Positions 32,975 through 47,260 of a stretch of 55,634 nt of DNA are shown here, in pieces. The notes beneath the pieces are model-generated. The model did no database searches and was not told the origin of the DNA. It saw only the letters and a program-made list of their open reading frames with translations. Source of the stretch: a virus; IMG/VR virus record IMGVR_UViG_3300038317_000068. The stretch is one strand, 5' to 3'. The number at the start of each line of letters is the position of its first letter. The stretch's first letter is position 1. The position numbers and the translations under genes were made by a program.

Positions 32975-33775
32975 TTAAACCTCCCTCCATATTTTTCTCA
33001 TGTCCAGTATAAACATATCGAATAATGATTGTTTGCTTACACCCTTAAGAGTAAACTTTTTCTTATAGTCATAAAGAATATACATAGTTTTAAGGTATCG
33101 GTCATCCTTTGTTTCAATAATTCTTTTCCTGCCAACATTAATCATCATATAGAAAAATAATTCCAGTGGATATCCATCTTGGTCATCCTTTATCTGTATA
33201 TGCTTACCGATATTAAAACTGTTTAATGTGCTTACCCTGCCAACATTATCATAAACAGTTTCACAGAACTTGTATAACTTTGCCGCCCCTATATCCTGCA
33301 ATTCTTTTATCTGCCCTATATTTTGAGCACACTGCAATATTAATTTATCGTCAGTTACTTGCTTTAATTGTTCCACTGTATAAGGTTCCAGCCAGTAAGT
33401 TTGTCCCCTGCTTTTTATTGTACTTAATATATTTGCTGGGTCTGTAATACTCATTAAAATATAACAATGCTTCGGCGGTTCTTCTGCCACCTTAAGCAAG
33501 GCATTTTCTGCCTGTGGAGTCATATCATCGGCATCCTTTAAATAATATATAATATCATGGCTTAACTTATTTGCTTCATCAATCAATGCCCTAATATTAT
33601 CCACCTTTAAAGCCTCTGGCTGTACTACTGGCACACCCATTATTTCCGCCAGTGCCTTAACCATTGTGCTTTTTCCCTGCCCTTTGTCCCCTGCTAATAT
33701 AATAAACTGGGGGAGGGCATTTTGTGCCCTTAAATCCCTAAATTTATTGAAAAGTTTTGTTTGTCCTATAAGCAT
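32975..33775 (-). CDS. holB: Clamp-loader delta-prime-like AAA+ subunit (HolB-like, 266 aa)
   Basis: Start MLIGQTKLFNKF follows GGAGGTG; P-loop-like ILAGDKGQGKST; LLKVAEEPP sensor block. Confidence 0.7.
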   Translation of the reverse strand: MLIGQTKLFNKFRDLRAQNALPQFIILAGDKGQGKSTMVKALAEIMGVPVVQPEALKVDNIRALIDEANKLSHDIIYYLKDADDMTPQAENALLKVAEEPPKHCYILMSITDPANILSTIKSRGQTYWLEPYTVEQLKQVTDDKLILQCAQNIGQIKELQDIGAAKLYKFCETVYDNVGRVSTLNSFNIGKHIQIKDDQDGYPLELFFYMMINVGRKRIIETKDDRYLKTMYILYDYKKKFTLKGVSKQSLFDMFILDMRKIWREV

Positions 33776-34806
33776 AACATCAGCACCTCCGCCTCGATAA
33801 GCGGTTTTACATTGCTTTCCCATTTAATCTTCGCATTAAGTTCGATAAATGTTTGTAATACTTCCTTAAAGAAATCAGTTTCATTATCCCTGTATTCATC
33901 CAAATCTTCGGCATATAATTTCGGGATACTAATATAATCAAAGTTACCCAGCAACTTATATTTTATAATATCGAGTAAAAAATAACTGTATAACTTTGCA
34001 AACTGCTTAAGGTCTTTGCCGTCCATGTAAAGCCCTTCAATTATTTCAATACATTTATCGGCATGTTCTGCCAGTATTTCATCAGTAAGTTTGAAAAATG
34101 TTGCATAATCTGCCGAACCGAGTGCATTTACCACATTTTCAAGGGTTATATTTTCATTATAACCACAACATTTATCCAGCATGGTAATTGCATCTCGCAT
34201 TCCACCCTCTGCCAGCTTTGCAATATATTCGAGGGCATCCTGTTCATAATTATAAAATCCATCTGGTCCACCCTTACCCATTATTTCTTCATTTTCCATT
34301 GTGAGTATATATTGCAACCTTTTAACGATATTTACTGTACTGTGTTTTTTAATATCAAACCTTTGCACCCTGCTTAATATTGTTGCTGGTATTTTCTGAG
34401 GGTCAGTTGTGCACATCATAAAAATTGTTTTAACTGGGGGTTCCTCTAATACTTTCAGCATTGCATTCCATGCACCAGTTGTCAACATATGGCACTCATC
34501 TATAATATAAACTTTCCATTCACAGTCCATGGCTTTAAACTTGCTGTCGTCTATAATAGCCCTTACATTATCAACTCCGTTATTACTTGCACCATCTACT
34601 TCAATCGGTTGCCCTTTGCCGCCATTTATTGCACTTGCTAATATTCTCGCCAGTGTTGTTTTTCCTGTCCCTGCTGGTCCTGTGAATAAATATGCTTGCT
34701 TAACTTCCTTTTTATCAATTTGATTCTGTAAAATATGCTTAACATTTTCCTGTCCAACCACATCATCAAAGGTTTTAGGTCTGTACTTTGTTGCTAAAGA
34801 TTCCAT
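33766..34806 (-). CDS. dnaX: Clamp-loader ATPase DnaX (gamma-like, 346 aa)
   Basis: KYRPKTFDDVVGQENV, GPAGTGKTT, IIDECHML, LKVLEEPP, SRVQRF. Confidence 0.9.
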   Translation of the reverse strand: MESLATKYRPKTFDDVVGQENVKHILQNQIDKKEVKQAYLFTGPAGTGKTTLARILASAINGGKGQPIEVDGASNNGVDNVRAIIDDSKFKAMDCEWKVYIIDECHMLTTGAWNAMLKVLEEPPVKTIFMMCTTDPQKIPATILSRVQRFDIKKHSTVNIVKRLQYILTMENEEIMGKGGPDGFYNYEQDALEYIAKLAEGGMRDAITMLDKCCGYNENITLENVVNALGSADYATFFKLTDEILAEHADKCIEIIEGLYMDGKDLKQFAKLYSYFLLDIIKYKLLGNFDYISIPKLYAEDLDEYRDNETDFFKEVLQTFIELNAKIKWESNVKPLIEAEVLMLCL

Positions 34807-34817
34807 CGAAATCCCTC

Positions 34818-35149
34818 CTAATTTAATCCCAAACTTATTTTTAATCTATCATCAAGTTCCTGCATTTGTGGGTCAGTTAAATGCCCCACCCATTCACCCA
34901 GTCTCCTCTTATCAACTGTTCTAACCTGTTCCAGTAATATTGTCGAAGGCATAAATAATCTAATATTCATATGCACTGGCAATTTCTTTTTATGTTGTGA
35001 AGTTAGAAAAGCCACTATTGTCGTCGGGCTATAAGTGTTACCCACATCATTCTGAATTACTACTGCATACCTGTCATTACATTGTTCTGAACCTACTTTT
35101 CATTGCCTAATTCTACAAAGTAAATATCACCCCTCTTCACTTGTTTCAT
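34818..35149 (-). pseudogene. mazF: MazF/PemK (EndoA-like) endoribonuclease toxin gene interrupted by a 1-nt frame change in an A4 run (T4 on the plus strand, 35097-35100)
   Basis: Frame 1 gives MKQVKRGDIYFVELGNEK then stop. Frame 2 gives VGSEQCNDRYAVVIQNDVGNTYSPTTIVAFLTS...ILLEQVRTVDKRRLGEWVGHLTDPQMQELDDRLKISLGL. The 332 nt are one base short of 111 codons. Strong RBS AGGGAGG. Confidence 0.8.
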
Positions 35150-35164
35150 ATATATTACCTCCCT

Positions 35165-35506
35165 TTAATCCTCACCATACAATTCCTTCCATGCCTTATA
35201 TAATTCATTAAAATCATCTTCGGGTAATGCCACATAAGATTTTCGAGGGTCACCATAATTAAACCTTATGCCACAGAACCTTCGCCCCATACTAAACATT
35301 TCTTCTTTTATCTTGTCAAACCATGATTTTTTTAGACTTACACTTTGTTGAAGTTTTGTTACTGTTTTATCATCAAGCAATGTATATTTATCTATTAAAT
35401 CACCTTTCATAAAAGGGGTTGCACCACTGTTCGGCTGTTGTTTCATACCCAGTGTTTTCGCCCCTTGTTTTTCACTCTTATCGCTGTAATATCTTGTTGG
35501 CTTCAT
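35165..35506 (-). CDS. Putative PD-(D/E)XK-type nuclease or resolvase-like protein (113 aa)
   Basis: PNSGATPFMKGDLIDKYTLLDDKT resembles the SG..KGD...(D/E)xK pattern of small phage nucleases. Confidence 0.35.
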   Translation of the reverse strand: MKPTRYYSDKSEKQGAKTLGMKQQPNSGATPFMKGDLIDKYTLLDDKTVTKLQQSVSLKKSWFDKIKEEMFSMGRRFCGIRFNYGDPRKSYVALPEDDFNELYKAWKELYGED

Positions 35507-35928
35507 TCACTTTCCTCCTTTTTTATATCCCTGCTTATCCTTAATAAATATGATGCTGTGCCTGTAACCCATGGGTCATCCAGTGGTAAGTGAAATCCTG
35601 TACCGGCATCCCAGTCTGAAAAGGCTTCAGCATATGGCACTTTCGCCGCTATTTCTGGATATTGTGCTTGTAATTTTACAAGTTCCCTGCCCCAGTGGTC
35701 AAACTGCTGGTCAGTTATAAGATTTTCATTTATCCTATAATATAAACAACTATGAACCAGCATTTGTCTTCGTCGCCTATTTATTAGTTCATATATTTTC
35801 TGGTCTTCTGGGCTTAAATGTAGGGGCTGGGGCTTATGGATTGGCTCTTGGTTTTTCCTTGCCTGTGCCTTTGCCTGTGCCTTTTTCTGTGGCTTTACTG
35901 GCATATTAAATAATGTTTTCTGTGCCAT
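35503..35928 (-). CDS. Small protein with an N-terminal QxTLF peptide and an NAD-ligase domain-Ia-like helical segment (141 aa)
   Basis: MAQKTLFNMPVKP...; LVHSCLYYRINENLITDQQFDHWGRELVKLQAQYPEI resembles the LigA Ia pattern (YY..d.P.isD.eyD.L..eL..lE..yPe). Confidence 0.45.
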   Translation of the reverse strand: MAQKTLFNMPVKPQKKAQAKAQARKNQEPIHKPQPLHLSPEDQKIYELINRRRRQMLVHSCLYYRINENLITDQQFDHWGRELVKLQAQYPEIAAKVPYAEAFSDWDAGTGFHLPLDDPWVTGTASYLLRISRDIKKEESE

Positions 35929-35949
35929 TTATAAGCCCCCCTTTGTTAC

Positions 35950-36345
35950 CTAACTGTTTACAATATCGTCATATTTCTTAAGCAATTCCACCATGTCTGG
36001 GTCATCCTTTGCCATCATTTCATAAATCTTTCTTTCCTCAATTTCCTTTTTTCTGCTGTCAAGTTTATCCTTAATGGCATTAAGTGCAACCAGCTTTTCC
36101 TTCTTGTTTACCAATGAAGCAACATCAATCTTCTGAATAATCCATGCTGTCGCTAAATCCCTGTCATTCTGTGTATTACTGTATTTCTCGAATATTGCTA
36201 CATTAATTCCGTACTGGGTTTCAACTGCAACATATTCACCTTTCTTTAAATCTGTGATGTCAATTAAATAACAATACTGCTTTGTAGTCTTTCTCCCTTC
36301 TGTGTAAACATTACCTTCATAAATAACCTTTGCAACTTTTATCAT
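35950..36345 (-). CDS. Hypothetical protein (131 aa)
   Basis: ORF track; first gene after a class II promoter. Confidence 0.6.
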   Translation of the reverse strand: MIKVAKVIYEGNVYTEGRKTTKQYCYLIDITDLKKGEYVAVETQYGINVAIFEKYSNTQNDRDLATAWIIQKIDVASLVNKKEKLVALNAIKDKLDSRKKEIEERKIYEMMAKDDPDMVELLKKYDDIVNS

Positions 36346-36367
36346 CTTGTTACCTCTTAATTTTTAT

Positions 36368-36406
36368 TTACACTAAATATATAATAAAATAAGCCACTTA
36401 TTAAAG
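36368..36406 (-). promoter_or_regulatory. Class II phage promoter
   Basis: Minus strand: CACTTTAA-N17-TATATATTTAGTGTAA. Confidence 0.7.
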
Positions 36407-36422
36407 TGGCTCATTAAAATAT

Positions 36423-36524
36423 TTAAAAATTTTTACCAACCATAGCAATTCGCTTTTTACCATTTTTATCAGTCCATGTAACAATTCTGATTTTAAATGG
36501 TCTTCTCTTCTTGGTTTCCTTCAT
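36423..36524 (-). CDS. Possible 33-aa basic peptide overlapping the end of the previous gene
   Basis: AAGGAGG lies 9 nt before the ATG; translation MKETKKRRPFKIRIVTWTDKNGKKRIAMVGKNF. Confidence 0.35.
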   Translation of the reverse strand: MKETKKRRPFKIRIVTWTDKNGKKRIAMVGKNF

Positions 36525-36885
36525 CTTCAATTACCTCCTTTTCCTCAATTGCACTTTTAACAACCCAGCCAGTCCATTTAATTTCTGCCATCTTTGCCTT
36601 AAGTGCTTCATATTCCTGCTGTAATTCTGCTTCAGTATTATAAGGGTTTATGTGAAAGTGTCCGCCGCACTCTGGTCCGATTCCATAATGTAAACTTACA
36701 GGATGTGTCAACTTTCTACCGCATACCATGCAAACACTTGTCGGCATTGGTTGCCCCCATAGTTCCATTTTCACCATACCTTTTGTCTCCTGTAATACTT
36801 TGCCAACCATAACCCTCATCGGCATTGGTTGCCCATTATTCCACTTATCATTAAAATCCCACTGCTTGGTCATGTATTGTCGCAC
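36493..36885 (-). CDS. Zinc-ribbon protein (DUF6011-like motif, 130 aa)
   Basis: CMVCGRKLTHPVSLHYGIGPECGGHF. Confidence 0.55.
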   Translation of the reverse strand: MRQYMTKQWDFNDKWNNGQPMPMRVMVGKVLQETKGMVKMELWGQPMPTSVCMVCGRKLTHPVSLHYGIGPECGGHFHINPYNTEAELQQEYEALKAKMAEIKWTGWVVKSAIEEKEVIEDEGNQEEKTI

Positions 36886-36904
36886 CTTAATTCGGTATAT
36901 CGTA

Positions 36905-37096
36905 TCATCTATCTTGCCGTCTGCTGGCTTTTCTTGTGCCCCCCTCTTGTATTAGTACCTTCGTTTCTTGCTTAAAATTAAGTTGTATTGTTATCTCGCC
37001 ATCAAAGTCCTTAAGGGCTGTATAAGCGGCGGCACTATTTTTATAAATTGTGCCATTCACTTTTAAAGGTTTTTCCCAGTTTAAAAGGTTCAACAT
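36905..37096 (-). CDS. Hypothetical early protein (63 aa)
   Basis: Start MLNLLNW follows GGAGGGA; behind a class I promoter. Confidence 0.55.
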   Translation of the reverse strand: MLNLLNWEKPLKVNGTIYKNSAAAYTALKDFDGEITIQLNFKQETKVLIQEGGTRKASRRQDR

Positions 37097-37125
37097 TTTT
37101 ATCCCTCCAACCATTTTATAAGTAT

Positions 37126-37154
37126 ATTATATAATAATATTGAAGGTAATGCAA
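37126..37154 (-). promoter_or_regulatory. Class I promoter
   Basis: Minus strand: TTGCAT-N17-TATAAT. Confidence 0.75.
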
Positions 37155-37164
37155 CTCTTTTTTA

Positions 37165-37196
37165 TAAAAAGAATAGGGCTTTTTATGCCCTATTCT
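37165..37196 (-). terminator. Rho-independent terminator
   Basis: Minus strand: GAATAGGGC-ATAAAAA-GCCCTATTC followed by TTTTT. Confidence 0.75.
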
Positions 37197-38359
37197 GATA
37201 TAACTTTGTTTACTTGTTTTGCAATATCATTAAACACAATCGGTTCACTTCTTAAATATTCGAGAAGTTTTGGTCTACCTTGAAATTTAAGTGGTTCATC
37301 ATTTTCATCACACATTATTTCCCCAGTTTCAATATCTAAAATATTAAACCATGCACCGCTCTGTCTTATAATGTCATACTTAATAGCAAGGTCAACGGTA
37401 TCCGCCAGCACATCAATTCCAGTTTTATATTTCAGTGTATAAAATCCCATTCGGCGGTCTGGTCTACATATTTTAGTTTTAGCAATATCCATATTTACGA
37501 GATTTCCTGCTGGTTCTGTCGCCTTATTATTTGCCAGTTCTTGATTATCCTCAGTTATAAATACCCCTTTTCTAAATAAGATTCGCACTGCATACAGATG
37601 TTTTAATGCCCTGCCGCCACTTGTCTTATACAGGTTATAAGGGTTCTCAATATCTTCCCTTACTTGGTTTATCATAATTAAGGCAACTTTATACTTATTC
37701 AGTAAAGGCGAAACCCTTGCTGAAAATTGTGCCATTGTGCCAGCAACACCACAATAAGCCTTCTTTTCCAGTGTTTCCTCATATAGTTGCTGTGGTATTA
37801 GCATCGGGATACTATCAACAACCACAATGCAAACATCCCCCGATTTAATAATATCAAGTACCATTTGTAATATCTGTTCGGCTGTTTGATTTTGTGGTCT
37901 GATTAAATACAAGTTATCAACATCAACACCGTTAAGCCTTGCCCAGTCTTCGTCCAGTGTATTTTCGGCGTCAACATATACAGCCTTTTTCGGTCCTTGT
38001 TCTTTAATGTTATCAATATCCTGCTGTAACTGCTGAATCCTTTTCTGGTCAGATTTATTATTCTTTGCTTGTAATTCATCCAATTCGGTTTCCATGCTAT
38101 CGAGTGCTTCATTATATTCCCTTAAGGCTTTTTTCTGTGCTTGCCCTACACAATCAAGGGCTGTGGTTGTTTTGCCGCCACCCTCACTTCCAAAGAATTC
38201 AACTGCCTTACCTACTGGGATTCCACCATAAAGCAAGTAATTTGCTCTCGGGCTGGAAAATGGTATTCTTTCACTATAAATAATGCTCGTGCCTTTTACC
38301 ACAATATTTTCCTTAAACTTTTTATTTATATCATTCATTAGTAAATCAAGATTATTCAT
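37190..38359 (-). CDS. recA: RecA-like recombinase with a coiled-coil insertion of about 45 aa after the Walker A helix (389 aa)
   Basis: FFGSEGGGKTTTAL (Walker A); AVYVDAENTLD; VVVDSIPML (Walker B); insertion KALREYNEALDSMETELDELQAKNNKSDQKRIQQLQQDIDNIKEQGP. Confidence 0.85.
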   Translation of the reverse strand: MNNLDLLMNDINKKFKENIVVKGTSIIYSERIPFSSPRANYLLYGGIPVGKAVEFFGSEGGGKTTTALDCVGQAQKKALREYNEALDSMETELDELQAKNNKSDQKRIQQLQQDIDNIKEQGPKKAVYVDAENTLDEDWARLNGVDVDNLYLIRPQNQTAEQILQMVLDIIKSGDVCIVVVDSIPMLIPQQLYEETLEKKAYCGVAGTMAQFSARVSPLLNKYKVALIMINQVREDIENPYNLYKTSGGRALKHLYAVRILFRKGVFITEDNQELANNKATEPAGNLVNMDIAKTKICRPDRRMGFYTLKYKTGIDVLADTVDLAIKYDIIRQSGAWFNILDIETGEIMCDENDEPLKFQGRPKLLEYLRSEPIVFNDIAKQVNKVISE

Positions 38360-39035
38360 TAAGTGCACCCCCTGCATATTTACAATCTTCATGGCATACT
38401 GGGCATTTAATAATATTAAATGTCAATACAGGGCACTCCTTTTTCAATAAGTCGAACAACTTAAGGGATAATTCTCTGATTTCCCATTGTGCTCGCTGGC
38501 ATAACCTTAATTGTAAGAAGTGTCTTAATTCCCTTGCATTCATAGTCATAACCATATTCGAATCTGTTGCAATAGGTAAGGTATATCTTGCATCTTCCTT
38601 TGGTATATCCAAACCCCTTAAATCCTTGTATGCCTGTTTCATGTTATTCATGGCACTTATATAAATTTTCAGTGCCTTTTCATTTTCTCTTATTGTTGGC
38701 GGCACAACATAACTAAAATATTCAGCATCAACATACCTTTGAGATTGTATGGAATAACTTGAAACCCTGTGTCGAGTAAGTTGCTGTTGTGTAACCCTAC
38801 TTACACCCTCAATATAGAATGTAAAGTTTACATGTTCAATCGGGCTTTCATGCCCCATTAATAACTTTTCCCTTACAAACTTCTCCATCTTTTCCTTATC
38901 TGGAATATCACCTATGCTGGTTTCAGTCACAGGTATTTTAATCTCATGTGGCTTTACTTTGCTATAACATGTCTTATATGCCACATACAATAATTCGAGT
39001 GGGCTTTGTGTGTCCCTTGCTAAATATACCTCCAT
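38352..39035 (-). CDS. thyX: Flavin-dependent thymidylate synthase ThyX (227 aa)
   Basis: ThyX signature LTRHRVSSYSIQSQRYV. Confidence 0.92.
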   Translation of the reverse strand: MEVYLARDTQSPLELLYVAYKTCYSKVKPHEIKIPVTETSIGDIPDKEKMEKFVREKLLMGHESPIEHVNFTFYIEGVSRVTQQQLTRHRVSSYSIQSQRYVDAEYFSYVVPPTIRENEKALKIYISAMNNMKQAYKDLRGLDIPKEDARYTLPIATDSNMVMTMNARELRHFLQLRLCQRAQWEIRELSLKLFDLLKKECPVLTFNIIKCPVCHEDCKYAGGALNE

Positions 39036-39214: not shown

Positions 39215-39240
39215 AACACAACCCCTCTTTATTAAATTCT

Positions 39241-39279
39241 TTACACTAAATATATAGTAAAAAAGGGCACTTCTTAAAG
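39241..39279 (-). promoter_or_regulatory. Class II phage promoter
   Basis: Minus strand: CACTTTAA-N17-TATATATTTAGTGTAA. Confidence 0.7.
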
Positions 39280-40737: not shown

Positions 40738-41214
40738 TTATTCCCCTCCTTCTGGGGCAATACCCTTAAGCAAATCTTTCACATTATAGATAAAGGTCTT
40801 AATCCTTTTCCTACTTGCCACTTTGTAACCCTTATCCCTTGCCCAGTCTATATTTAAACTTTTACTTCCATGTTCTGCTAAATACTGCAACAACTTAATA
40901 TCCACAAAGTAAGTTTCTTCATAATCTGTATAATGGATTAATATGCCAGCCCTTACCCCTGTAATATTACTCTTTTTCACCAACCCTGTCCATTGATAAT
41001 CTGTTATACAACTGAAGGGAAGTGTATTGCCTTTGTGTGCCTTCAGTTCCATATAATATTCAAAGGGATGGCGGTATAGCACAAAGTCGCATATATTTTT
41101 TATACCAGCATAGCCGCCAACATTGTCATAAAATCTGTCAATACTTATATCTTCATAGTTGCCAGCACTTTCCTTAAAATCTTTTTCAAAGTCCTTGCCG
41201 CTATATCCGCTCAT
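40738..41214 (-). CDS. recU: RecU-like Holliday junction resolvase (158 aa)
   Basis: ICDFVLYRHPFEYYMELKAHKGNTLPFSCITDYQ matches the RecU D...E.K...fp...hQ core. Confidence 0.6.
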   Translation of the reverse strand: MSGYSGKDFEKDFKESAGNYEDISIDRFYDNVGGYAGIKNICDFVLYRHPFEYYMELKAHKGNTLPFSCITDYQWTGLVKKSNITGVRAGILIHYTDYEETYFVDIKLLQYLAEHGSKSLNIDWARDKGYKVASRKRIKTFIYNVKDLLKGIAPEGGE

Positions 41215-41226
41215 TTGTTCGCCCCC

Positions 41227-42000
41227 TTACCACTTATTACATTCTTTTTTATACCTGCAATAAGTGCAATCCTTTTTTATAGTGCTTTTCGGAGGAACTT
41301 CACCCTTTGCAACATATTCATCACAAGTGTTTATTTTACCAACAACTCGCTCCTCTTTCATTTCATCTGTAACATGCACTAAAAAAGTTTTCAAATCACA
41401 ACTATCACGATTTTCGTAAATAAATATAATGTTATCAACACCTAAACAAACACTGTAAGAGCTTGCCTGTGTAATGTGGTCATCATATGGTTGAACTTGC
41501 CCTTGCCATTTGTAAAAACTCTCAGTCTTAATTTCAACAATATAATATTTGCCCTTATACTTTATTAAACCATCACAAAGGAAATTGATATTTAATATTG
41601 TATTTCGGCATTTTGTTTCCATCCCTGATTGTCTTTCAACAATGGTTCCCTCTACTGGATGTGTCTTTAAAAATTCAGCCACATTAATCCATTCACAGTC
41701 AAACCCCATAGCTTGCATCTTACTAATTGCCGTCTGTATGGTTACATGTCGGTCAGTTCCGCTGGCTGTTTGCCCTATATTTGTATAACTTCTATCTTCG
41801 TCATCTGGGGTTGCCCCAGTAACTTGAAAATATAAGTTTCTCATACAGCCCCCCAGTGAAGAAGGTTTATAGGTCTTACTGGGAGTATGGCTTTCATCGG
41901 CTTTTTCAATGGTAACTGTTAAGTCCTGTAAAAATTGGTCTTGTATGGGCTTAACCTTTGAAGCCTCATTTATAAGTTTTGCAAGGTTCTTAAGTGCCAT
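41227..42000 (-). CDS. Cas4/RecB-family PD-(D/E)XK exonuclease with a 4-Cys cluster (257 aa)
   Basis: N-terminal Cys in LGGCMRNLYF; DGLIKYKGKYYIVEIKT; QASSYS; C-terminal CTYCRYKKEC. Confidence 0.8.
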   Translation of the reverse strand: MALKNLAKLINEASKVKPIQDQFLQDLTVTIEKADESHTPSKTYKPSSLGGCMRNLYFQVTGATPDDEDRSYTNIGQTASGTDRHVTIQTAISKMQAMGFDCEWINVAEFLKTHPVEGTIVERQSGMETKCRNTILNINFLCDGLIKYKGKYYIVEIKTESFYKWQGQVQPYDDHITQASSYSVCLGVDNIIFIYENRDSCDLKTFLVHVTDEMKEERVVGKINTCDEYVAKGEVPPKSTIKKDCTYCRYKKECNKW

Positions 42001-43055
42001 TACTTATCATCCCCACCCATTAAGCACAGGATTTCGGTTACTGCACCATCTTTTAATTTAATTACTGTATCGTTACCATAATACAGTTCGAATGTGTCTG
42101 CCTGTATTGCATTGATTAAAGCCGATAAAAGTGTGATATTTACTGTACCCATATAATCCGCAAAGTTTTCACTTGAAAGATAAGGTACAAGTTCAGTATT
42201 TTCACCCTTTACATCTGTAAGCATTAATCCTTCCTTTGTAAAGGTAAGCACCACACCATTATTATCATAAGGGCTTACAAAGATATTCAATCTGTCAAGT
42301 ACATTGCTTATTGCTACCTTTGAAAGTTTGCACTTGCTGGGATATTCGAATGCTAAAATATTATTCAAATCTGGATAATCTTCTATGCCAGCCAGTTCAG
42401 CACCAAACACCACAATATTATCACTGGTAAACAGTAATTTTCCGTCACTGTGTTTTATCATAACTTTTTCGGCTGTCAATGTGCTTAACAAGTTTGCCAA
42501 TTCCTGTGTCAAGAGCACTGGTTCATCCAATACCTTAACTTCATTGATACACATTTTCACCCCATCTGTAGTAATTGCTTTATCTCCTAAATTAAATCCA
42601 GTTAAGCAAGGCATTGTCATATCAGTTGCAAGTGAAGCCTTATTTACTGTAAAAATGTTCTTTAATTGTGCTGTACTTATCACCTTACCTTCCACACTGT
42701 CATCAAATTCATATTCTGGGTATTCTTCATTTAATACAGGGATTTTATAATTACCATTTCCCTTTACTGCCAGATGGTCTTCCTTAAGTTCCATTTTAAT
42801 TGTTTCAACGGTTGTCCTGCTTACCAATTTCATAAACTGGTTGGCTGGCACAATTACCTCACCGTCTTCACCTACCACATTCTTTTCAATTACATTAATG
42901 TAATTATTAATATCTGTGGCTGTAATTGTCAAGGTTCTGTCTTTTTCCTGTAAGTGTAAAAAACTTGTTATCGGCAATAATTTATTATTACCAACACCCT
43001 TCTGAGCCTTCCCGAGCATATCGCTCAAGGTTGCTGTCTTGATTTCAAGTTTCAT
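42000..43055 (-). CDS. dnaN: DNA sliding clamp, bacterial beta (DnaN) type (351 aa)
   Basis: N-terminus MKLEIKTATLSDMLGKAQKGVGNNKLLPITSFLHLQEKDRTLTITATD; three-domain length. Confidence 0.85.
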   Translation of the reverse strand: MKLEIKTATLSDMLGKAQKGVGNNKLLPITSFLHLQEKDRTLTITATDINNYINVIEKNVVGEDGEVIVPANQFMKLVSRTTVETIKMELKEDHLAVKGNGNYKIPVLNEEYPEYEFDDSVEGKVISTAQLKNIFTVNKASLATDMTMPCLTGFNLGDKAITTDGVKMCINEVKVLDEPVLLTQELANLLSTLTAEKVMIKHSDGKLLFTSDNIVVFGAELAGIEDYPDLNNILAFEYPSKCKLSKVAISNVLDRLNIFVSPYDNNGVVLTFTKEGLMLTDVKGENTELVPYLSSENFADYMGTVNITLLSALINAIQADTFELYYGNDTVIKLKDGAVTEILCLMGGDDK

Positions 43056-43089
43056 TTTGTATCCTCCTTTAAATACTGTGTTATTTTGT

Positions 43090-43128
43090 TTACATTAAAT
43101 ATATAGTAAATAACCAGCTTTATTAAAG
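43090..43128 (-). promoter_or_regulatory. Class II phage promoter
   Basis: Minus strand: AGCTTTAA-N17-TATATATTTAATGTAA. Confidence 0.7.
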
Positions 43129-43947
43129 CTGGTTATTAAAATCTTTTAAATTTTTTCTTATGCCTACAACCCACAACAAATCATCAGGCTGTATATATGG
43201 CAAACATTTTGCTTCATATATGGGGTCTAATAAATAGCCATGATATTCATTATTTTCATATGGCTTATGATAATCATAATCACTTTGTATGAGTGTAAGC
43301 ATTTGCCGCCATTCTTTCGGGGCATATTCATTAAGTCTTTTCAATGGGTCTGCACCCACTTGAACCCCGATTACTGGTATCCTTTTATTAAAATGCTTAA
43401 GCCCCCACAATACACCAGCACAACTCATCCCACTGCCTATCGGTACAATAATTCTTTTTACTTCATCTGGAATATTTTTTACTTGGAGTAATGTTTGTCT
43501 TACTGCACCCCAGCACTCCATTCCGAACGGTATTTCTGTCCATTTACTTTTAAAGGCATCTTCTCTCGCCCTTGCAATTATTACTGAATTATGCCATATA
43601 TCATCATGTATTATTAATTCAGCACCAGCGTCAATCGCTGTTTGTAGTTCGGGAGTAATACCGCCCCTTATTGTGTGCACCCTACAAGGGATATTCATAT
43701 ACTTTGCAATATTAGCAACAATCTCAATCTGTGGGCTTTGCCTTGCTCCTGCTGTAACCAACCCTTTCGCTCCCTGTGCTAAATAATAAGCACTTCGCAC
43801 CTTGCCACCAGCCACTCCAGCAAGTTCATACAGGTCATCCCTTTTAATAAAAATATCTCCTATCTTTTGCACAGGGGTAAGGGGATAATCCCCGTCTGCC
43901 CTTGCAATTAAAGTATCCAAATCAAATAAAGTATTTTGTTTCATCAT
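43123..43947 (-). CDS. PLP-dependent enzyme of the D-cysteine desulfhydrase / ACC deaminase family (fold type II) with an N-terminal QNTLF peptide (274 aa)
   Basis: Blocks align by eye with E. coli DcyD: IFIKRDD, GGKVRS (PLP lysine), LVTAGARQS, IIVPIGSGMSCAG, VIGVQV, GYLLDPIYEAK. The ATG overlaps the methyltransferase stop (ATATGATGA). Confidence 0.8.
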   Translation of the reverse strand: MMKQNTLFDLDTLIARADGDYPLTPVQKIGDIFIKRDDLYELAGVAGGKVRSAYYLAQGAKGLVTAGARQSPQIEIVANIAKYMNIPCRVHTIRGGITPELQTAIDAGAELIIHDDIWHNSVIIARAREDAFKSKWTEIPFGMECWGAVRQTLLQVKNIPDEVKRIIVPIGSGMSCAGVLWGLKHFNKRIPVIGVQVGADPLKRLNEYAPKEWRQMLTLIQSDYDYHKPYENNEYHGYLLDPIYEAKCLPYIQPDDLLWVVGIRKNLKDFNNQL

Positions 43948-44930
43948 ATAATCACTTCCCCGAAGATATCTTTTATTTTACTGGTATCCCCTTTATAAAA
44001 TACAAGGATATTCTGATGCATTTTACCGAACTTCCTGCCGCTGTTAAACTGTTTATTTATTCTCACTGGGAGTGTTCCTGCTGTATTTACTAATATGGCT
44101 TCATTGTAATACTGCAAGCCAGCATTTTTAAAGGCTCTAATTGTATCACCTACAAAGTTTCTATAAATGCCATCTTTATCTCTTATTTCACCAACAACAA
44201 ACACCGCAAACCTATTTTCCTTCAAGTGCCTTGCACAATTTTCGATTATTAAATTATACACCCTTAAAAAATCTCCATAGGTTTCTTTATTACTTAAGTC
44301 CACAGGGTTGTCGCTATATACTTCAAGGTCATAATAAGGAGGGCAACTAAATATTAAATCATATTCAGCCTGTGGGTCTATTATACCAACATTTACACTA
44401 TTGCCACATATCCATTCTGGGGGATATTCCTTATCCCTTTTATCAATTATTTTGCCTTTAATTGCATTATAATTAATGTTGTTGGCATCTATCTGTTCCT
44501 GTCTTAAATCAATTCCCCTGTAATTCCTTTTTAAATAACTTGCTACCACACCCCTAACACTTCCACCAGCAAAGGGGTCTATAATTCTCCAACCTTCCAA
44601 ACTGAACCAGCGATAAACTATTTCACATAATACAGGGTCGAAAATACTGGTTGCCTGTATTTTTCTTCCATACTTTTCACCTATGCTATCAGGTAAACAT
44701 TTTCCGAACTTTGTTTTATCATCATTTCCGTCAAGTTGATTGTCGCCCCTACCCAGTTCGCTCTTAATACCTAAATTAAGCCAATCATGTTTCCTCTCCT
44801 GCCAGTAACCTTGTTTCGTATCAAATACACTAAATGGGGGCACTAAAAATCTATCTGTCAATGCTCTGCTGTCCCCCTTTTTCATTTTAAATAAAGTGCC
44901 TTGTTTATTTGTTATTTTTTCAACTGCCAT
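43944..44930 (-). CDS. DNA amino-methyltransferase-fold enzyme (N6-A/N4-C type; motif I precedes motif IV) with a QGTLF peptide near the N-terminus (328 aa)
   Basis: SIFDPVLCEIVYRWFSLEGWRIIDPFAGGSVRG (motif I); DLIFSCPPYYDLEVY (motif IV, CPPY); start by TAATG overlap with the PolA stop; RBS GAGGAGG. Confidence 0.8.
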   Translation of the reverse strand: MAVEKITNKQGTLFKMKKGDSRALTDRFLVPPFSVFDTKQGYWQERKHDWLNLGIKSELGRGDNQLDGNDDKTKFGKCLPDSIGEKYGRKIQATSIFDPVLCEIVYRWFSLEGWRIIDPFAGGSVRGVVASYLKRNYRGIDLRQEQIDANNINYNAIKGKIIDKRDKEYPPEWICGNSVNVGIIDPQAEYDLIFSCPPYYDLEVYSDNPVDLSNKETYGDFLRVYNLIIENCARHLKENRFAVFVVGEIRDKDGIYRNFVGDTIRAFKNAGLQYYNEAILVNTAGTLPVRINKQFNSGRKFGKMHQNILVFYKGDTSKIKDIFGEVII

Positions 44931-47260
44931 TATACAGCAACCTCCTCGCCATACCATTTTTCAGTAATTTCAATATCGCACTTCATAGGAACTTTTAAGT
45001 GTGAAGCCCCTATCATTGTTTCTTGTATCAATTCCCTTACCCTTCTTGCATTTTCTTTCGGGCATGTGCCTATTATTTCATCATGCACTGTAAGCAATAA
45101 CTTAAATTGTAATTGTCTTAATTCTTCATTGTTATAAAGATGGATTATTGCCAACTTGGTCATATCTGCCGAACTACCTTGAATTCTGGCATTTACACAC
45201 TGTCTCTCCGCCTGTGCAATAAAGCCGCCATTATCCTTTATCTTTATACCTTCCGCCTTTGCCTTTGCTTTAATATTGTTTTTCTCTGATACTTTCCATG
45301 TGTTGTTCAATAATGCTGAATAACTTTGCACTAAATATTCGGGCACTTCTGTATTTACTTCAGTTATGCCGTCATCGTCAAAGAATGGATTAAATGTTGC
45401 CACATTGTTGATATAATTGAATTCATATTTTGGTAACTGTATATCTGGCAATCTTCTTTTTCTGCCATAAATTGTCGTAACATAACCGAATTCCTTTGCC
45501 ATTGTAATTGATTGTTCGACGAAGGCTTTAACTTTTGGAAACATTGTAAAGAATTCATCAATAATACTTTGTGCTTCCTTTTTACTAATGTTCAACTCTG
45601 ATGCAATACTTGCCGCACCCCTGCCATACATAATTCCTAATACAACACCCTTAATATTTCCTCTTCGTTTTTTACCTTCTGGGTTCGTTGTACCGTCTGG
45701 GAAAAACTCCAAACAATCTTCATAAGGTAACTTATAAACCATGCTCGCTATTGTTGCATAAATATCTTTCCCGTCATTGTATGCCTTAATTAAATTTTCA
45801 TCACCGCTAAAATGTGCAAGGCATCGAGGTTCCTGCTGGCTATAGTCACCGCCTATTAATACCCAGCCATTTTCAGCAACAAACATTTTTCGTATATCCT
45901 TATTATGACTCGGGATATTTTGTAGGTTCGGGTCACTACTTGAAAATCTACCAGTTGCCGCACCATATTGATTAAAACTACCATGAACCTTTCCTGTCTT
46001 TTGATTTACAACTGCTGGCAACTTTTCAATATAAGTGCTTAAAAGTTTAAAGATACCTCGATATTCAAGTATTGCCTTTGTAATAGGTAACTTGAAAGTC
46101 TCAATAATCTCTTCACCTGTGCCCCTTGGTTTATCTTTGTCTGGGCTTTTTAACCCCAGCACATCATATAATAAAATTGCCAACTGTTTCGGGCTATTTA
46201 CATTAATAGGGTTTTCCAGTGAAGCATATCCTTTCGGGTTCTTCTTTTTAAATGTCTTAAGTTGTGGCTCAAGCCTTGCATATTCATCATTAATATGGGA
46301 TTGTGCTTTGTCAAGCAACTTATTATATTTTACAGATAATTCCTCTGCATAATCTTCATCTATTTTAACCCCATTACTTTCCATGTTTGCCACTGCTGGT
46401 ATTAATGGCATCTCTATATTTCTAAAGACATAAGCCAAACCATCATATTTCTCGCCCTTATATACAGGGCTGGCACTGTCCAGAAATTGTTCTTGAAATT
46501 TACCTAATACATAAGTCATATATGGGTCTTTTGCCGCATACAGGTAAGCAACCTCAAGCGGTATCCTTGTAAATGGCATCCCCTCAAATAACTTTTCATA
46601 TGTTGCCAGTTCATCGGCACTCTTGCCACTATTTACAACATACTTTTCATATAGATACTTCAAGTTATGAGGTTCGTTTTCGTTAAGCAAGAAACCGCCT
46701 AACATTGTATCCCAGTAAGGTATTAAACCCTCGACCCCTAATTGCCAGTAACATTCTTCAATATCGAACTTTGCATTGTGATAATAAACTTTTACATCCT
46801 GTAAATTCCTTAATTCTTCAGCAACAACTTCCTTCGGGATTTGTCCCTTAACCTTTGCACCAGTAATATAATTAATATGGTTTATAGGAACATAAGCTGG
46901 CTTTTCATCTGGGGTATAAATACAAGCCCCTGCAATCTGGTCATCTATCCAATTTAATCCATCGGTTTCAGTATCCAGCCCCAGCACACCATTTTTTCGA
47001 GCATGTGCCATATATCGCCTAAATTCACCCTCATCCATTATAAGCTGGTATTTTTCTTTTTCTGCACCGAGTTCCCTGTTTACAAGTTCAGTAATTGCTT
47101 TAATTTTCAAGATTATATTATTGCCGCCGCCCCTGCCGCCGCCTTTAATGGTTATAATGTTACCTGTATTGATACGACTCTTGGTTCTACCTACTGCCTT
47201 TTTATCGGCGGCTCTACCAGTTGGTCGGCTTGGCATTTTAAATAATGTGTTTTGTGCCAT
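44930..47260 (-). CDS. polA: Family A DNA polymerase with a 3'-5' exonuclease domain and a 75-aa N-terminal extension starting MAQNTLFKMP (776 aa)
   Basis: Exo motifs LGLDTETDGL, YYHNAKFDIE and YAAKDPYMTY. Pol motif A GGDYSQQEPR; motif B KRRGNIKGVVLGIMYGRG; motif C LTVHDEI. Confidence 0.93.
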   Translation of the reverse strand: MAQNTLFKMPSRPTGRAADKKAVGRTKSRINTGNIITIKGGGRGGGNNIILKIKAITELVNRELGAEKEKYQLIMDEGEFRRYMAHARKNGVLGLDTETDGLNWIDDQIAGACIYTPDEKPAYVPINHINYITGAKVKGQIPKEVVAEELRNLQDVKVYYHNAKFDIEECYWQLGVEGLIPYWDTMLGGFLLNENEPHNLKYLYEKYVVNSGKSADELATYEKLFEGMPFTRIPLEVAYLYAAKDPYMTYVLGKFQEQFLDSASPVYKGEKYDGLAYVFRNIEMPLIPAVANMESNGVKIDEDYAEELSVKYNKLLDKAQSHINDEYARLEPQLKTFKKKNPKGYASLENPINVNSPKQLAILLYDVLGLKSPDKDKPRGTGEEIIETFKLPITKAILEYRGIFKLLSTYIEKLPAVVNQKTGKVHGSFNQYGAATGRFSSSDPNLQNIPSHNKDIRKMFVAENGWVLIGGDYSQQEPRCLAHFSGDENLIKAYNDGKDIYATIASMVYKLPYEDCLEFFPDGTTNPEGKKRRGNIKGVVLGIMYGRGAASIASELNISKKEAQSIIDEFFTMFPKVKAFVEQSITMAKEFGYVTTIYGRKRRLPDIQLPKYEFNYINNVATFNPFFDDDGITEVNTEVPEYLVQSYSALLNNTWKVSEKNNIKAKAKAEGIKIKDNGGFIAQAERQCVNARIQGSSADMTKLAIIHLYNNEELRQLQFKLLLTVHDEIIGTCPKENARRVRELIQETMIGASHLKVPMKCDIEITEKWYGEEVAV

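What the first reader, a model, noticed from the sequence alone, without database searches (positions are those of the whole stretch)
33749..47254. The N-terminal peptide Q-x-T-L-F (beta-clamp-binding-motif-like) recurs on four functionally unrelated proteins
Seen in sequence:
- PolA starts MAQNTLFKMPSRP (47240-47254).
- The 141-aa LigA-Ia-like protein starts MAQKTLFNMPVKP (35908-35922).
- The methyltransferase starts MAVEKITNKQGTLFKMKKG (44889-44903).
- The PLP enzyme starts MMKQNTLFDLD (43924-43938).
- A fifth, more ambiguous case is the HolB-like subunit, MLIGQTKLFNKF (33749-33763).

Established knowledge: bacterial beta-clamp partners use a short QL[SD]LF / QxxLxF peptide. It is often at a terminus, as in the N-terminus of Hda.

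Inference: the phage encodes its own DnaN-type clamp (42000-43055), and these peptides probably dock the proteins onto it. A family-A polymerase would then gain processivity from a beta-type clamp. A methyltransferase and a PLP enzyme would become replisome passengers.
Basis: partly seen in the sequence, partly recalled or inferred. Interest (0 to 1): 0.8.

Follow-up and report, generated by a model that had tools for sequence, protein, structure and literature searches.

The report
Phage clamp-docking peptides on replication enzymes
A Clostridium-type phage that encodes its own ring-shaped DNA clamp puts the same short "Q-x-x-L-F" docking peptide on the flexible tip of its DNA polymerase and of three other DNA-related enzymes. 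Related phages do the same with DNA-modifying enzymes, which suggests that copying and chemically marking the phage DNA are coupled on one sliding platform.

Summary
Q-x-T-L-F occurs four times in the 16.6-kaa proteome (0.1 expected). All four copies lie within the first 14 residues of PolA, a stand-alone LigA-Ia-domain protein, a DNA methyltransferase and a PLP enzyme. Each lies ahead of the folded domain.

The fifth case (HolB) is the AAA+ "GQ" box and is rejected.

Comparative data support the clamp-binding reading:
- The window's DnaN is a bona fide three-domain beta clamp, and a three-gene loader is present.
- PolA residues 1-46 are predicted disordered.
- Every PolA found next to a DnaN of this family has an N-terminal L-F-type peptide. 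PolAs in clamp-less relatives lack it.
- In about 80 related loci the peptide also appears as a basic C-terminal "...KKxLF" tail on DpdA, several DNA methyltransferases, DUF6884 and Nlig-Ia. That is 110 ORFs against 8 expected.
- Nlig-Ia proteins carry the peptide in 25 of 25 loci with a clamp system, and lack it in 46 of 55 loci without one.

The conserved core is L-F; Q is lineage-specific. I rate this a new variant of the known beta-clamp "toolbelt": a family-A replicase and DNA-modification enzymes tethered to a phage clamp.

The parts
44930..47260 (-). Family-A DNA polymerase (3'-5' exo + pol domains, no 5'-nuclease domain), 776 aa. It has a roughly 46-residue disordered N-terminal tether.
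   Evidence: Pfam PF01612 + PF00476. AF2 mean pLDDT 87.7, with residues 1-46 below 50. 120 homologues all share an N-terminal peptide followed by a basic linker.
47240..47254 (-). QNTLF pentapeptide of PolA (residues 3-7); putative clamp-binding motif.
   Evidence: L6 is invariant in 55/55 aligned homologues and F7 is present in 37/55. Extended consensus: LFx(L/V/M)PxRx(T/S)(K/R)xxD.
43944..44930 (-). DNA methyltransferase (ParB-like N-terminal segment + N6_N4_Mtase), 328 aa counted from the supported start at 44930.
   Evidence: Pfam PF01555. PHROG 12517/498 matches begin at residue 20. RBS and TAATG coupling support the start.
44889..44903 (-). QGTLF pentapeptide of the methyltransferase (residues 10-14).
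   Evidence: Orthologues carry KQGMLF (L001), NRLFDF (phiCTP1), AQKSLF (L177) and MALISVKRK (L067).
43123..43947 (-). PLP-dependent enzyme of fold type II, in the ACC-deaminase / D-cysteine-desulfhydrase family, 274 aa.
   Evidence: Pfam PF00291. PDB phmmer hit to 4d8t D-cysteine desulfhydrase at E = 4e-6, with the GGK lysine aligned. The PHROG 3650 match starts at residue 13.
43924..43938 (-). QNTLF pentapeptide of the PLP enzyme (residues 4-8).
   Evidence: Its three closest homologues start MIQNVLF, MNKNLF and MALFEIF. Most of the 120 homologues have no N-terminal extension.
42000..43055 (-). Phage DnaN: three-domain beta-type sliding clamp, 351 aa; the proposed receptor.
   Evidence: Pfam PF00712. 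PDB phmmer E = 2.7e-9. AF2 pLDDT 95.9. Foldseek TM 0.84-0.90 to E. coli, B. subtilis and S. pyogenes beta clamps. hhalign probability 97% with the cleft loop TDG.(K/R)(L/M) conserved.
35503..35928 (-). Stand-alone NAD-ligase domain-Ia protein (Nlig-Ia), 141 aa.
   Evidence: Pfam PF22745 covers residues 45-133. PHROG 6466 covers residues 41-138.
35908..35922 (-). QKTLF pentapeptide of Nlig-Ia (residues 3-7), followed by a roughly 35-residue K/Q/A/P-rich linker.
   Evidence: Orthologues carry the peptide at the N-terminus (MNLFSI, MQKSLF), at the C-terminus (...KKRLF*...KGGLF*), or at both.
33766..34806 (-). DnaX-like clamp-loader ATPase.
   Evidence: Pfam PF13177, PF00004, PF22608, PF12169.
32975..33775 (-). 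HolB-like (delta') clamp-loader subunit. Its GQTKLF (33749-33763) is not a docking motif.
   Evidence: Pfam PF13177. Start supported. Orthologues read GQEELK (L001), GQVKLL (phiCTP1) and GQGLVK (Dp-1).
32042..32971 (-). HolA-like (delta) clamp-loader subunit.
   Evidence: Pfam PF21694.

Best explanation
The phage carries a complete bacterial-type clamp system: a DnaN beta clamp plus a DnaX/HolB/HolA-like loader.

Its family-A polymerase, a stand-alone Nlig-Ia protein, a DNA methyltransferase and a PLP enzyme each carry a Q-x-x-L-F clamp-binding motif at the N-terminus, ahead of the folded domain. In PolA the motif sits at the tip of a predicted disordered tether.

Proposed mechanism (inferred, not shown):
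1. The L-F pair inserts into the hydrophobic cleft between domains II and III of the loaded phage clamp.
2. PolA is thereby held on the primer-template and becomes processive.
3. The second cleft of the dimer, or exchange on the same cleft, recruits the other proteins as a toolbelt.
4. Nascent phage DNA is then methylated or otherwise processed directly behind the fork. In relatives, deazaguanine is inserted by DpdA in the same way.

Shown here: the motif, its placement, its conservation, its portability between termini, its association with phage clamp genes, the clamp fold and partial conservation of the cleft loop.

Inferred: physical binding, the identity of the receptor, the processivity gain, and replication-coupled modification.
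For: 1. **Motif and placement.** There are 4 of 4 Q.TLF copies at N-termini against 0.1 expected. Domain models begin after the motif. PolA residues 1-46 have pLDDT below 50.

2. **Receptor present.** The DnaN model has pLDDT 95.9 and TM 0.84-0.90 to beta clamps, many of them solved with bound peptides. E. coli cleft residues L155, T172, D173, G174, L177, P242 and V247 align to L150, T162, D163, G164, M167, P227 and I232. A three-gene loader is present.

3. **Conservation in PolA.** All 120 closest PolA homologues start with an L-F or L-L peptide followed by a basic linker, with one apparent exception (P0100). So do the full-length PolAs in 80 DnaN-anchored loci. L6 is invariant.

4. **Portability.** In those loci 110 of 2375 ORFs end in LF against 8.3 expected. 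They are concentrated in DpdA (36/40), Nlig-Ia (24/26 at either end), an N6/N4 MTase (17/19), a C5 MTase (5/6), a SAM-MTase-like family (5/5) and DUF6884. There are none in DnaN, the Cas4-like nuclease, SSB or UvsX, and one N-terminal regex match in the DnaX/HolB cluster. The tails are 42% K/R against 13% background.

5. **Phyletic link.** Nlig-Ia carries the peptide in 25 of 25 loci with DnaN or a loader, and lacks it in 46 of 55 loci without (Fisher P about 1e-13). ORFs ending in LF number 27/835 in clamp loci against 10/1423 in others. The clamp-less relative phi8074-B1 has the same SSB-PolA-Cas4-RecU-UvsX backbone, but its PolA has no peptide or linker. PolAs in other clamp-less loci also lack it. 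The DpdA of clamp-less mycobacteriophage Bipper has no tail.

6. **Clade-specific flavours shared by partners.**
   - Window: QNTLF / QKTLF / QGTLF / QNTLF.
   - L177: QNLLF / QNVLF / QKSLF.
   - Dp-1: QKGLF / QKSLF / QRRLF*.
   - phiCTP1: ALFNF / RLFDF / NLFSI.
   - L121 clade: SLI on DpdA (both ends) and on Nlig-Ia.

7. **Precedent.** QxxLF is the accepted beta-clamp motif. An actinobacterial PolA2 with an internal QxxLF was modelled on the clamp in 2026 (PMC12926913).
Against: - No binding evidence of any kind.
- Q, which is canonical in cellular motifs, is absent in most relatives (MALF, SGLF, AGLL, ALSF).
- PolA conserves about 19 N-terminal residues (LFxxPxRxTKxxD), more than a minimal clamp-binding motif needs. 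This could reflect an additional or different partner.
- The phyletic statistics are not corrected for shared ancestry or for IMG/VR redundancy.
- The C-terminal strand of the cleft could not be aligned to E. coli beta.
- The host beta clamp could be the receptor, either instead of or in addition to the phage clamp.
- The PLP-enzyme motif is limited to a small subset of that family.
Confidence: 0.72

Rival explanations
1. The peptides dock on the host's beta clamp rather than the phage clamp. They would either borrow it or titrate it away from the host replisome.
For: QxxLF is the consensus for cellular clamps as well (PMC12926913). Phage proteins that bind host clamps are known, for example Twort Gp168 (PDB 7evp, listed) and MuC (PMC12867686).
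Against: The peptides track phage-encoded clamp and loader genes, and are absent from clamp-less relatives that infect similar hosts. The motif flavour changes clade by clade (LF, LL, LI, with or without Q). That is expected for co-evolution with a fast-evolving phage receptor, not with a conserved host clamp.
Confidence: 0.1
2. The peptides bind a different phage hub that is co-inherited with the clamp module. Candidates are the clamp loader, the Cas4-like nuclease that almost always follows dnaN, or the helicase. The clamp association would then be indirect.
For: The PolA N-terminus conserves a longer stretch (LFxxPxRxTKxxD) than a canonical clamp motif. A Cas4-like gene accompanies DnaN in 76 of 83 loci. 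Clamp loaders co-occur with the peptide as tightly as DnaN does.
Against: The Cas4-like, SSB, DnaB and UvsX genes are all present in clamp-less phi8074-B1, where PolA lacks the peptide. A terminal hydrophobic pair on a basic or disordered tail, shared by polymerases and DNA-modifying enzymes, is the signature of clamp clients. In Pseudomonas, E. coli and Cellulophaga phages the clamp gene is the neighbour of the tail-bearing DpdA module.
Confidence: 0.12
3. The recurrence is a by-product of nucleotide-level selection at gene starts (A/U-rich, unstructured 5' coding regions, shared RBS contexts) or of chance. The peptide would then have no function.
For: The codons are A/T-rich (ACA TTA TTT AAA). 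PolA and the MTase share GGTTGCTGTA just upstream of their starts. A look-elsewhere test gives P about 0.005, not an astronomically small value.
Against: The same peptide occurs at C-termini in orthologues. It persists across very different codon contexts and hosts (Pseudomonas, Cellulophaga, Streptococcus). L-F is invariant while the flanks vary. It correlates with clamp genes.
Confidence: 0.03

Closest known systems
Bacterial beta-clamp-binding motif (QL[SD]LF / QxxLF) and the clamp 'toolbelt' (Pol II, III, IV and V, Hda, MutS/L, LigA)
   Same: A pentapeptide with Q at position 1 and L-F at positions 4-5, located at an extreme terminus or in a disordered segment. Several DNA-transaction proteins share one cleft on a DnaN dimer. 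An N-terminal location has a precedent in Hda (established knowledge).
   Different: Here both the clamp and the clients are phage-encoded. The replicase is family A, not family C. Clients include DNA methyltransferases, DpdA, a PLP enzyme and a stand-alone ligase Ia domain. In most relatives Q is dispensable, and C-terminal versions are preceded by a K/R-rich run.
Actinobacterial PolA2 (APEX) with an internal QxxLF (Nucleic Acids Res 2026, PMC12926913)
   Same: A family-A polymerase predicted from sequence to use a beta clamp through QxxLF.
   Different: PolA2 is a cellular enzyme, probably of low fidelity. Its motif lies in a loop of a dead exonuclease domain and it uses the host clamp. The window's PolA has an intact exo domain profile, an N-terminal tethered motif and its own clamp and loader, so it looks like the replicase. 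That paper calls PolA2 the first bacterial family-A polymerase with such a motif.
T4/RB69 gp45 clamp with C-terminal clamp-interaction peptides on gp43, gp33, gp55 and T4 ligase
   Same: A phage-encoded clamp and loader. Terminal hydrophobic peptides on the polymerase and on non-polymerase clients.
   Different: gp45 is a PCNA-like trimer and its polymerase is family B. The motifs are PIP-like and C-terminal. No DNA-modification enzymes are known clients.
Eukaryotic DNMT1-PCNA (PIP box) replication-coupled maintenance methylation
   Same: A DNA methyltransferase tethered to the sliding clamp by a short N-terminal Q-containing peptide, which couples modification to the fork.
   Different: The clamp family and motif differ (Qxx[ILM]xx[FY][FY], which the window peptides do not satisfy). 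The parallel is by analogy only.
PolA + polIII-beta + gamma co-occurrence noted in phages Ma-LMM01 and RSL1 (Kazlauskas & Venclovas 2011, PMC3201878)
   Same: Co-occurrence of a family-A polymerase with a beta-clamp homologue and a loader subunit in phage genomes. The clamp was suggested as the processivity factor.
   Different: Those are phages above 150 kb. No interaction motif was identified and no other clients were proposed.

Membership tests
Beta-clamp-binding motif (QL[SD]LF / QxxLF short linear motif) | Pentapeptide with Q at position 1 and a hydrophobic pair L-F at positions 4-5. | tested here: met
   QNTLF, QKTLF, QGTLF, QNTLF. Position 2 is not L and position 3 is T rather than S/D, so these match the relaxed QxxLF form.
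Beta-clamp-binding motif (QL[SD]LF / QxxLF short linear motif) | Lies in a disordered or terminal segment outside the folded domain. | tested here: met
   PolA residues 1-46 have pLDDT below 50. Pfam and PHROG domain matches start at residues 71 (PolA), 20 (MTase), 13 (PLP enzyme) and 41 (Nlig-Ia).
Beta-clamp-binding motif (QL[SD]LF / QxxLF short linear motif) | Conserved as an island in otherwise variable sequence across orthologues. | tested here: met
   L6 is invariant in 55/55 PolAs and F7 is present in 37/55. The C-terminal tails selected for ending in LF have otherwise variable residues. Q itself is not conserved outside some lineages.
Beta-clamp-binding motif (QL[SD]LF / QxxLF short linear motif) | A cognate beta clamp with the domain II/III hydrophobic cleft is available. 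| tested here: inconclusive
   The clamp fold is confirmed. The cleft loop TDG.(K/R)(L/M), P227, L150 and I232 align to E. coli T172-L177, P242, L155 and V247.
Beta-clamp-binding motif (QL[SD]LF / QxxLF short linear motif) | Physically binds the cleft, and binding is lost on mutation of the L-F pair. | not testable with these tools
No multimer prediction or experiment was available.
Beta-clamp-binding motif (QL[SD]LF / QxxLF short linear motif) | Presence correlates with presence of the clamp (phyletic coupling). | tested here: met
   Nlig-Ia contingency of 25/25 against 9/55, Fisher P about 1e-13. LF-ending ORFs number 27/835 against 10/1423. Clamp-less outgroups lack the peptide. None of this is corrected for phylogeny.
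Bacterial-type beta sliding clamp (DnaN) | Three structurally similar domains per protomer. Pfam DNA_pol3_beta N-terminal, central and C-terminal domains. | tested here: met
   PF00712 at E = 5e-16. The central domain is sub-threshold in the window protein, but PF02767 and PF02768 are recorded on many homologues. The AF2 model has a three-fold repeated beta-alpha-beta pattern and TM 0.84-0.90 to solved beta clamps.
Bacterial-type beta sliding clamp (DnaN) | A dedicated clamp loader (DnaX/delta'/delta) is present. | tested here: met
   Three adjacent genes at 32042-34806 with PF13177, PF22608, PF12169 and PF21694.
PCNA-interacting PIP box (Qxx[ILM]xx[FY][FY]) | An aromatic pair at positions 7-8 after Q. 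| tested here: not met
   QNTLFKMP, QKTLFNMP, QGTLFKMK and QNTLFDLD have no aromatic pair at positions 7-8.
   GQTKLF aligns with GQEELK, GQVKLL and GQGLVK in orthologues. G-Q is the conserved AAA+ N-terminal box, also seen in DnaX (VVGQENV).

The most novel reading that the evidence does not exclude
The phage beta clamp may be a platform for replication-coupled DNA modification, not just for the polymerase. In the window, the ParB/MTase-like enzyme and the ACC-deaminase-family PLP enzyme form a gene pair conserved across many contigs. One relative has an adjacent SAM synthetase. Both enzymes are clamp-tethered, and together they might install a not-yet-described SAM-derived hypermodification on nascent DNA. 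In relatives, DpdA, QueC and several methyltransferases ride the clamp in the same way. This would be a prokaryotic-virus counterpart of DNMT1-PCNA.
Probability: 0.2. Interest if true: 0.85.

Novelty: new variant of a known kind. Interest (0 to 1): 0.68.

Why it matters
If the peptides bind the phage clamp, three things follow.

1. A widespread group of Firmicutes phages (relatives of Dp-1, phiCTP1 and Flasso, plus many metagenomic genomes) replicates with a family-A polymerase made processive by a beta-type clamp. This architecture has no experimentally characterised example. It also gives a compact, self-contained replisome for biochemistry and biotechnology.

2. DNA-modifying enzymes would be delivered to DNA by the replication clamp. 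These include DpdA (7-deazaguanine insertion), C5 and N6/N4 methyltransferases and others. This would explain how phages modify their genomes quickly and completely enough to escape host restriction.

3. The terminal "...KKxLF" or "M(x)nLF" tag becomes a simple sequence rule for spotting new DNA-acting proteins in these phages. Candidates already visible are DUF6884, an unknown 132-aa family and the PLP enzyme.

I found no paper in the searchable library that links DpdA or phage methyltransferases to a sliding clamp. A 2026 survey calls an actinobacterial PolA2 the first bacterial family-A polymerase with such a motif.

Tried and rejected
**Things tried that led nowhere**
- Co-folding.
- The search for related loci with a 7-sequence DnaN alignment failed because no stretch was conserved enough. 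A 4-sequence alignment worked.
- The Dp-1 intraviral interactome paper (PMC3019816) is not held. The phage-host interactome paper does not mention DnaN.
- Megablast of the replication module found only a 4% match, so no close isolate exists in the phage collection.

**Readings considered and rejected**
- HolB 'GQTKLF' as a fifth motif. It is not conserved and is the AAA+ GQ box.
- A generic N-terminal regex (M.{0,4}LF) is not enriched overall (22 observed against 17 expected in clamp loci). The N-terminal signal is family-specific (PolA, Nlig-Ia, a 132-aa family). Families such as MKKLFISQ and MEDRYLFKAK look structural and were not counted as clients.
- The YELFTG segment at the start of many Nlig-Ia domains is part of the fold, not a docking peptide.
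- A PIP-box reading is rejected because there is no aromatic pair.
- A DNA-repeat origin of the similarity is rejected because of synonymous differences between copies.
- The PolA N-terminal extension as receptor for the acidic C-terminal tails of SSB and DnaB. This is unlikely, because those tails persist in clamp-less phi8074-B1 whose PolA lacks the extension.

Full report
**What the window is.** All credible genes lie on the minus strand. The window is close to a complete siphophage-type genome of about 56 kb. An ENA contig of 56 kb encodes a PolA that is 99% identical. The nearest isolates are Clostridium phages phiCTP1 and FA88 (PolA about 55% identical, DnaN about 42%). More distant are Bacillus phage Flasso and Streptococcus phages Dp-1 and MS1.

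The replication module (about 32-55 kb) encodes, in gene order:
- a DnaC-like loader, DnaB, primase, NrdD/NrdG, an SSB-like protein and PolA;
- a methyltransferase, a PLP enzyme, DnaN, a Cas4-like nuclease and a RecU-like resolvase;
- dUTPase, ThyX, a UvsX/RecA-like recombinase and Nlig-Ia;
- a resolvase-like protein and a DnaX/HolB/HolA-like clamp loader.

**The observation.**
- The PolA and Nlig-Ia starts have strong RBSs.
- The methyltransferase most likely starts at the ATG at 44930 (MAVEK...). That start has a GGAGG RBS and a TAATG overlap with the polA stop, and it places QGTLF at residues 10-14.
- The PLP enzyme start overlaps the methyltransferase stop (ATGA).
- HolB most likely starts at 33775.

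In a proteome of 68 ORFs and 16,632 residues, Q.TLF occurs four times against 0.105 expected. All four copies are N-terminal, where 0.0087 are expected (Poisson P about 2e-10). With a look-elsewhere correction, any pattern of four fixed residues shared by at least four N-termini arose in 10 of 2000 shuffles. Synonymous codon differences show that the similarity is at the protein level.

**Identity of the carriers, and where the motif sits.**
- PolA has 3'-5' exo and pol domains, and the profile matches start at residue 71. An AF2 model built on 55 homologues has mean pLDDT 87.7, but residues 1-46 are below 50. QNTLF therefore sits at the tip of a predicted disordered tether.
- In Nlig-Ia the domain spans residues 41-138 and is preceded by a K/Q/A/P-rich linker.
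- The methyltransferase profiles begin at residue 20.
- The PLP-enzyme profile begins at residue 13.
- The PLP enzyme belongs to the ACC-deaminase / D-cysteine-desulfhydrase branch of fold-type II, and its GGK lysine aligns.

**The candidate receptor.**
- The window DnaN has the Pfam beta-clamp N-terminal domain.
- It finds solved beta clamps by sequence at E = 3e-9.
- It models at pLDDT 95.9.
- It superposes on E. coli, B. subtilis and S. pyogenes beta clamps at TM 0.84-0.90 over the full three-domain protomer. Many of those structures were solved with peptides in the cleft.
- A profile alignment to E. coli beta gives probability 97%.
- The alignment puts E. coli cleft residues L155, T172, D173, G174, H175, R176, L177, P242 and V247 opposite L150, T162, D163, G164, V165, K166, M167, P227 and I232. 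The C-terminal strand of the cleft did not align.

**Conservation in PolA.** The 120 closest PolA homologues all begin with a short hydrophobic peptide followed by a basic linker of about 30 residues and a (I/V)KGG element, with one apparent exception (P0100). Nine begin with QxxLF. The others include MRTLF..., MSGLFNLPPR..., MAGLLKSLPPR..., MKKGLLGDL... and MALFNF.... In a 55-sequence alignment L6 is invariant and F7 is present in 37 of 55. The consensus extends to LFx(L/V/M)PxRx(T/S)(K/R)xxD. Dp-1 PolA starts MAQKGLFGAKPR and Flasso PolA starts (M)FQNSLFKN.

**Portability between proteins and between termini.** I collected 80 IMG/VR loci around DnaN relatives, called ORFs and clustered them. 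Of 2375 ORFs, 110 end in L-F against 8.3 expected. They concentrate in a few families:

| Family | Members carrying the terminal peptide |
|---|---|
| DpdA (7-deazaguanine DNA transglycosylase) | 36/40 |
| Nlig-Ia | 18/26 C-terminal, 10/26 N-terminal, 24/26 at either end |
| N6/N4 DNA methyltransferase | 17/19 |
| C5 cytosine methyltransferase | 5/6 |
| Methyltransf_23-like protein | 5/5 |
| DUF6884 (two groups) | 4/4 and 4/4 |
| Unknown family, about 320 aa | 2/2 |

An unknown 132-aa family carries the peptide N-terminally (15/23). DnaN, the Cas4-like nuclease, SSB and UvsX never carry it; the DnaX/HolB cluster gave a single N-terminal regex match. The ten residues before the C-terminal L-F are 42% K/R (background 13%) and 2.7% D/E (background 14%), and are otherwise variable.

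Within a clade the different client proteins share the same flavour of peptide:
- The window has four Q.TLF copies.
- L001 has QSTLF, QQTLF and QGMLF.
- L177 has QNLLF (PolA), QNVLF (PLP enzyme) and QKSLF (MTase).
- Dp-1 has QKGLF (PolA), QKSLF (Nlig-Ia) and ...QRRLF* (DpdA).
- phiCTP1 has no Q: MALFNF, NRLFDF, MNLFSI and VDLFNN.
- One clade uses S-L-I on both ends of DpdA and on Nlig-Ia.

**Link to the clamp.** Three lines of evidence connect the peptide to phage clamp genes.
1. Clostridium phage phi8074-B1 has the same SSB-PolA-Cas4-RecU-UvsX backbone but no DnaN, loader or Nlig-Ia. Its PolA starts MFYTRDNIKAHIWK..., with no peptide and no basic linker. Seven other PolAs in clamp-less loci also lack it.
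2. Stand-alone Nlig-Ia proteins are widespread: 882 cluster representatives, of which about one third carry a terminal L-F. In 80 loci anchored on Nlig-Ia, all 25 loci with DnaN or at least two loader genes have a peptide-bearing Nlig-Ia. In the 55 loci without a clamp system, 46 lack it (Fisher P about 1e-13, or about 6e-12 on unique sequences).
   - Of the nine exceptions, three lie on short or edge-cut contigs and five are regex false positives.
   - The ninth, L144 (from a 92-kb contig), has four further ORFs ending in (K/R)(K/R)LF. I predict a clamp gene elsewhere on that contig.
3. ORFs ending in L-F number 27 of 835 in clamp loci and 10 of 1423 in the rest.

These statistics are not corrected for shared ancestry.

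**Beyond Firmicutes phages.** The pattern reappears in unrelated hosts.
- Pseudomonas phage PSASB_03: DpdA ends ...NEQMELF* and overlaps the start of a 'DNA polymerase processivity factor' gene. Its QueC starts MSEQQLELFEGE.
- NP1: DpdA ends ...RIQELF* and the next gene is annotated 'replicative clamp'.
- CAjan: DpdA ends ...RVMELF*, with a clamp gene and PolB just downstream.
- Cellulophaga phage phiSM: DnaN sits inside the Que cluster, and two neighbours of DpdA end ...QVNLF* and ...SVNLF*.
- Mycobacteriophage Bipper: DpdA ends ...AKENGQ* and there is no clamp gene nearby.

**The PLP enzyme.** Most of its 120 closest homologues start directly at the catalytic core. The three closest (56-60% identity) start MIQNVLF, MNKNLF and MALFEIF, and roughly a dozen others have similar N-terminal extensions. 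Two of these lie in PolA- or loader-containing phage contigs. A homologue without the peptide lies in a DnaE-type phage locus with no clamp gene. The PLP passenger is therefore real but confined to a sub-lineage.

**The fifth case.** HolB's GQTKLF aligns with GQEELK (L001), GQVKLL (phiCTP1) and GQGLVK (Dp-1). G-Q is the conserved box that also opens DnaX (VVGQENV). I reject it as a docking motif.

**Mechanism.** The best-supported model is a phage-encoded beta-clamp toolbelt. The L-F pair at a flexible terminus inserts into the clamp cleft. PolA gains processivity. The other cleft, or exchange on the same cleft, brings the methyltransferase, the PLP enzyme and Nlig-Ia to nascent DNA. In relatives the same route brings DpdA and other methyltransferases.

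The role of Nlig-Ia is unclear. It is a ligase Ia domain with no catalytic core, so it may be an adaptor or regulator for the host NAD-dependent ligase. This is inference only.

Steps shown: motif, placement, disorder, conservation, portability, clamp fold and phyletic coupling. Steps inferred: binding, the choice of the phage clamp over the host clamp, processivity and replication-coupled modification. A co-folding test was not possible.

**Comparison with what is known.**
- The peptides meet the relaxed QxxLF definition of the bacterial clamp-binding motif, but not the PIP box.
- Co-occurrence of PolA with a beta homologue and a gamma subunit was noted in two large phages in 2011, without any motif (PMC3201878). 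A 2016 survey adds nothing on this point.
- A 2026 survey reports an internal QxxLF in actinobacterial PolA2 and calls it the first bacterial family-A polymerase with such a motif (PMC12926913).
- I found no paper linking DpdA or phage methyltransferases to a clamp.

I therefore class this as a new variant of a known kind.

Noticed in passing
window 47333-47965 (SSB-like), 53212-54525 (DnaB), 55303-55485 (60-aa ORF): A second shared terminal peptide. SSB ends ...REPVNGSDVF*, DnaB ends ...EFAVNGTEVF*, and the small ORF ends ...KKSDVVF*. The same pattern occurs in L001, L003 and Flasso. It also occurs in clamp-less phi8074-B1 (SSB ...EDIPF*, Cas4-like ...DEEVF*, DnaB ...NEFGF*). It resembles the bacterial SSB C-terminal tip and the T7 gp2.5/gp4 acidic tails that bind the polymerase. 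It is independent of the clamp system.
   Followed up: partly
window 43123-44930; L067, L072, L177, L175: The ParB/MTase-like gene and the ACC-deaminase-family PLP gene form a conserved pair. One database protein (P0441) even reads through from the MTase C-terminus into the PLP enzyme. In L175 the gene upstream of the PLP enzyme is a SAM synthetase. This could be an uncharacterised SAM-dependent DNA-modification module.
   Followed up: partly
L172 (Pseudomonas phage PSASB_03), L088 (NP1), L089 (CAjan), L174 (Cellulophaga phiSM): In 7-deazaguanine phages of Gram-negative hosts, dpdA lies next to or near a phage clamp gene, and DpdA ends in ...ELF*. PSASB_03 QueC starts with a canonical QLELF. 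In phiSM, dnaN sits inside the Que cluster, and the neighbours of DpdA carry ...VNLF* tails.
   Followed up: partly
window 47123-47260 (PolA residues 1-46): The PolA N-terminus conserves more than a pentapeptide: LFx(L/V/M)PxRx(T/S)(K/R)xxD (D19 in 52/54), followed by a variable basic stretch and a (I/V)KGG element. The extra conserved positions may contact the clamp surface or a second partner.
   Followed up: partly
L144 (IMGVR_UViG_3300031867_000027, 92.7-kb contig): There is no clamp or loader in the 20 kb fetched. Even so, Nlig-Ia starts MGSISLFAIPK and four other ORFs end in (K/R)(K/R)LF*. The model predicts a clamp gene elsewhere on this contig.
   Followed up: no
window 47261-47276 and 44931-44947: PolA and the methyltransferase share the nucleotide string GGTTGCTGTA between the RBS and the start codon, and both proteins begin ATG GCA. 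This may be a coincidence of the PolA C-terminal coding sequence, or a shared translation-initiation context.
   Followed up: no
window 35503-35928 and 882 database representatives: Stand-alone LigA domain-Ia proteins of about 95-180 aa form a large, mostly viral family. No ligase catalytic core was noticed among the window's annotated genes. The function of a free Ia domain, clamp-tethered or not, is unknown.
   Followed up: partly
window 55303-55485 and 48719-50482: Two further N-terminal x-L-F strings are present: MRQYLNPETLFRV in a 60-aa ORF, and MLDTNGLFDSY in NrdD. The NrdD one is not conserved in phiCTP1 NrdD (MLDVVKTIDDY), so it is probably chance. The small ORF was not examined further.
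   Followed up: partly
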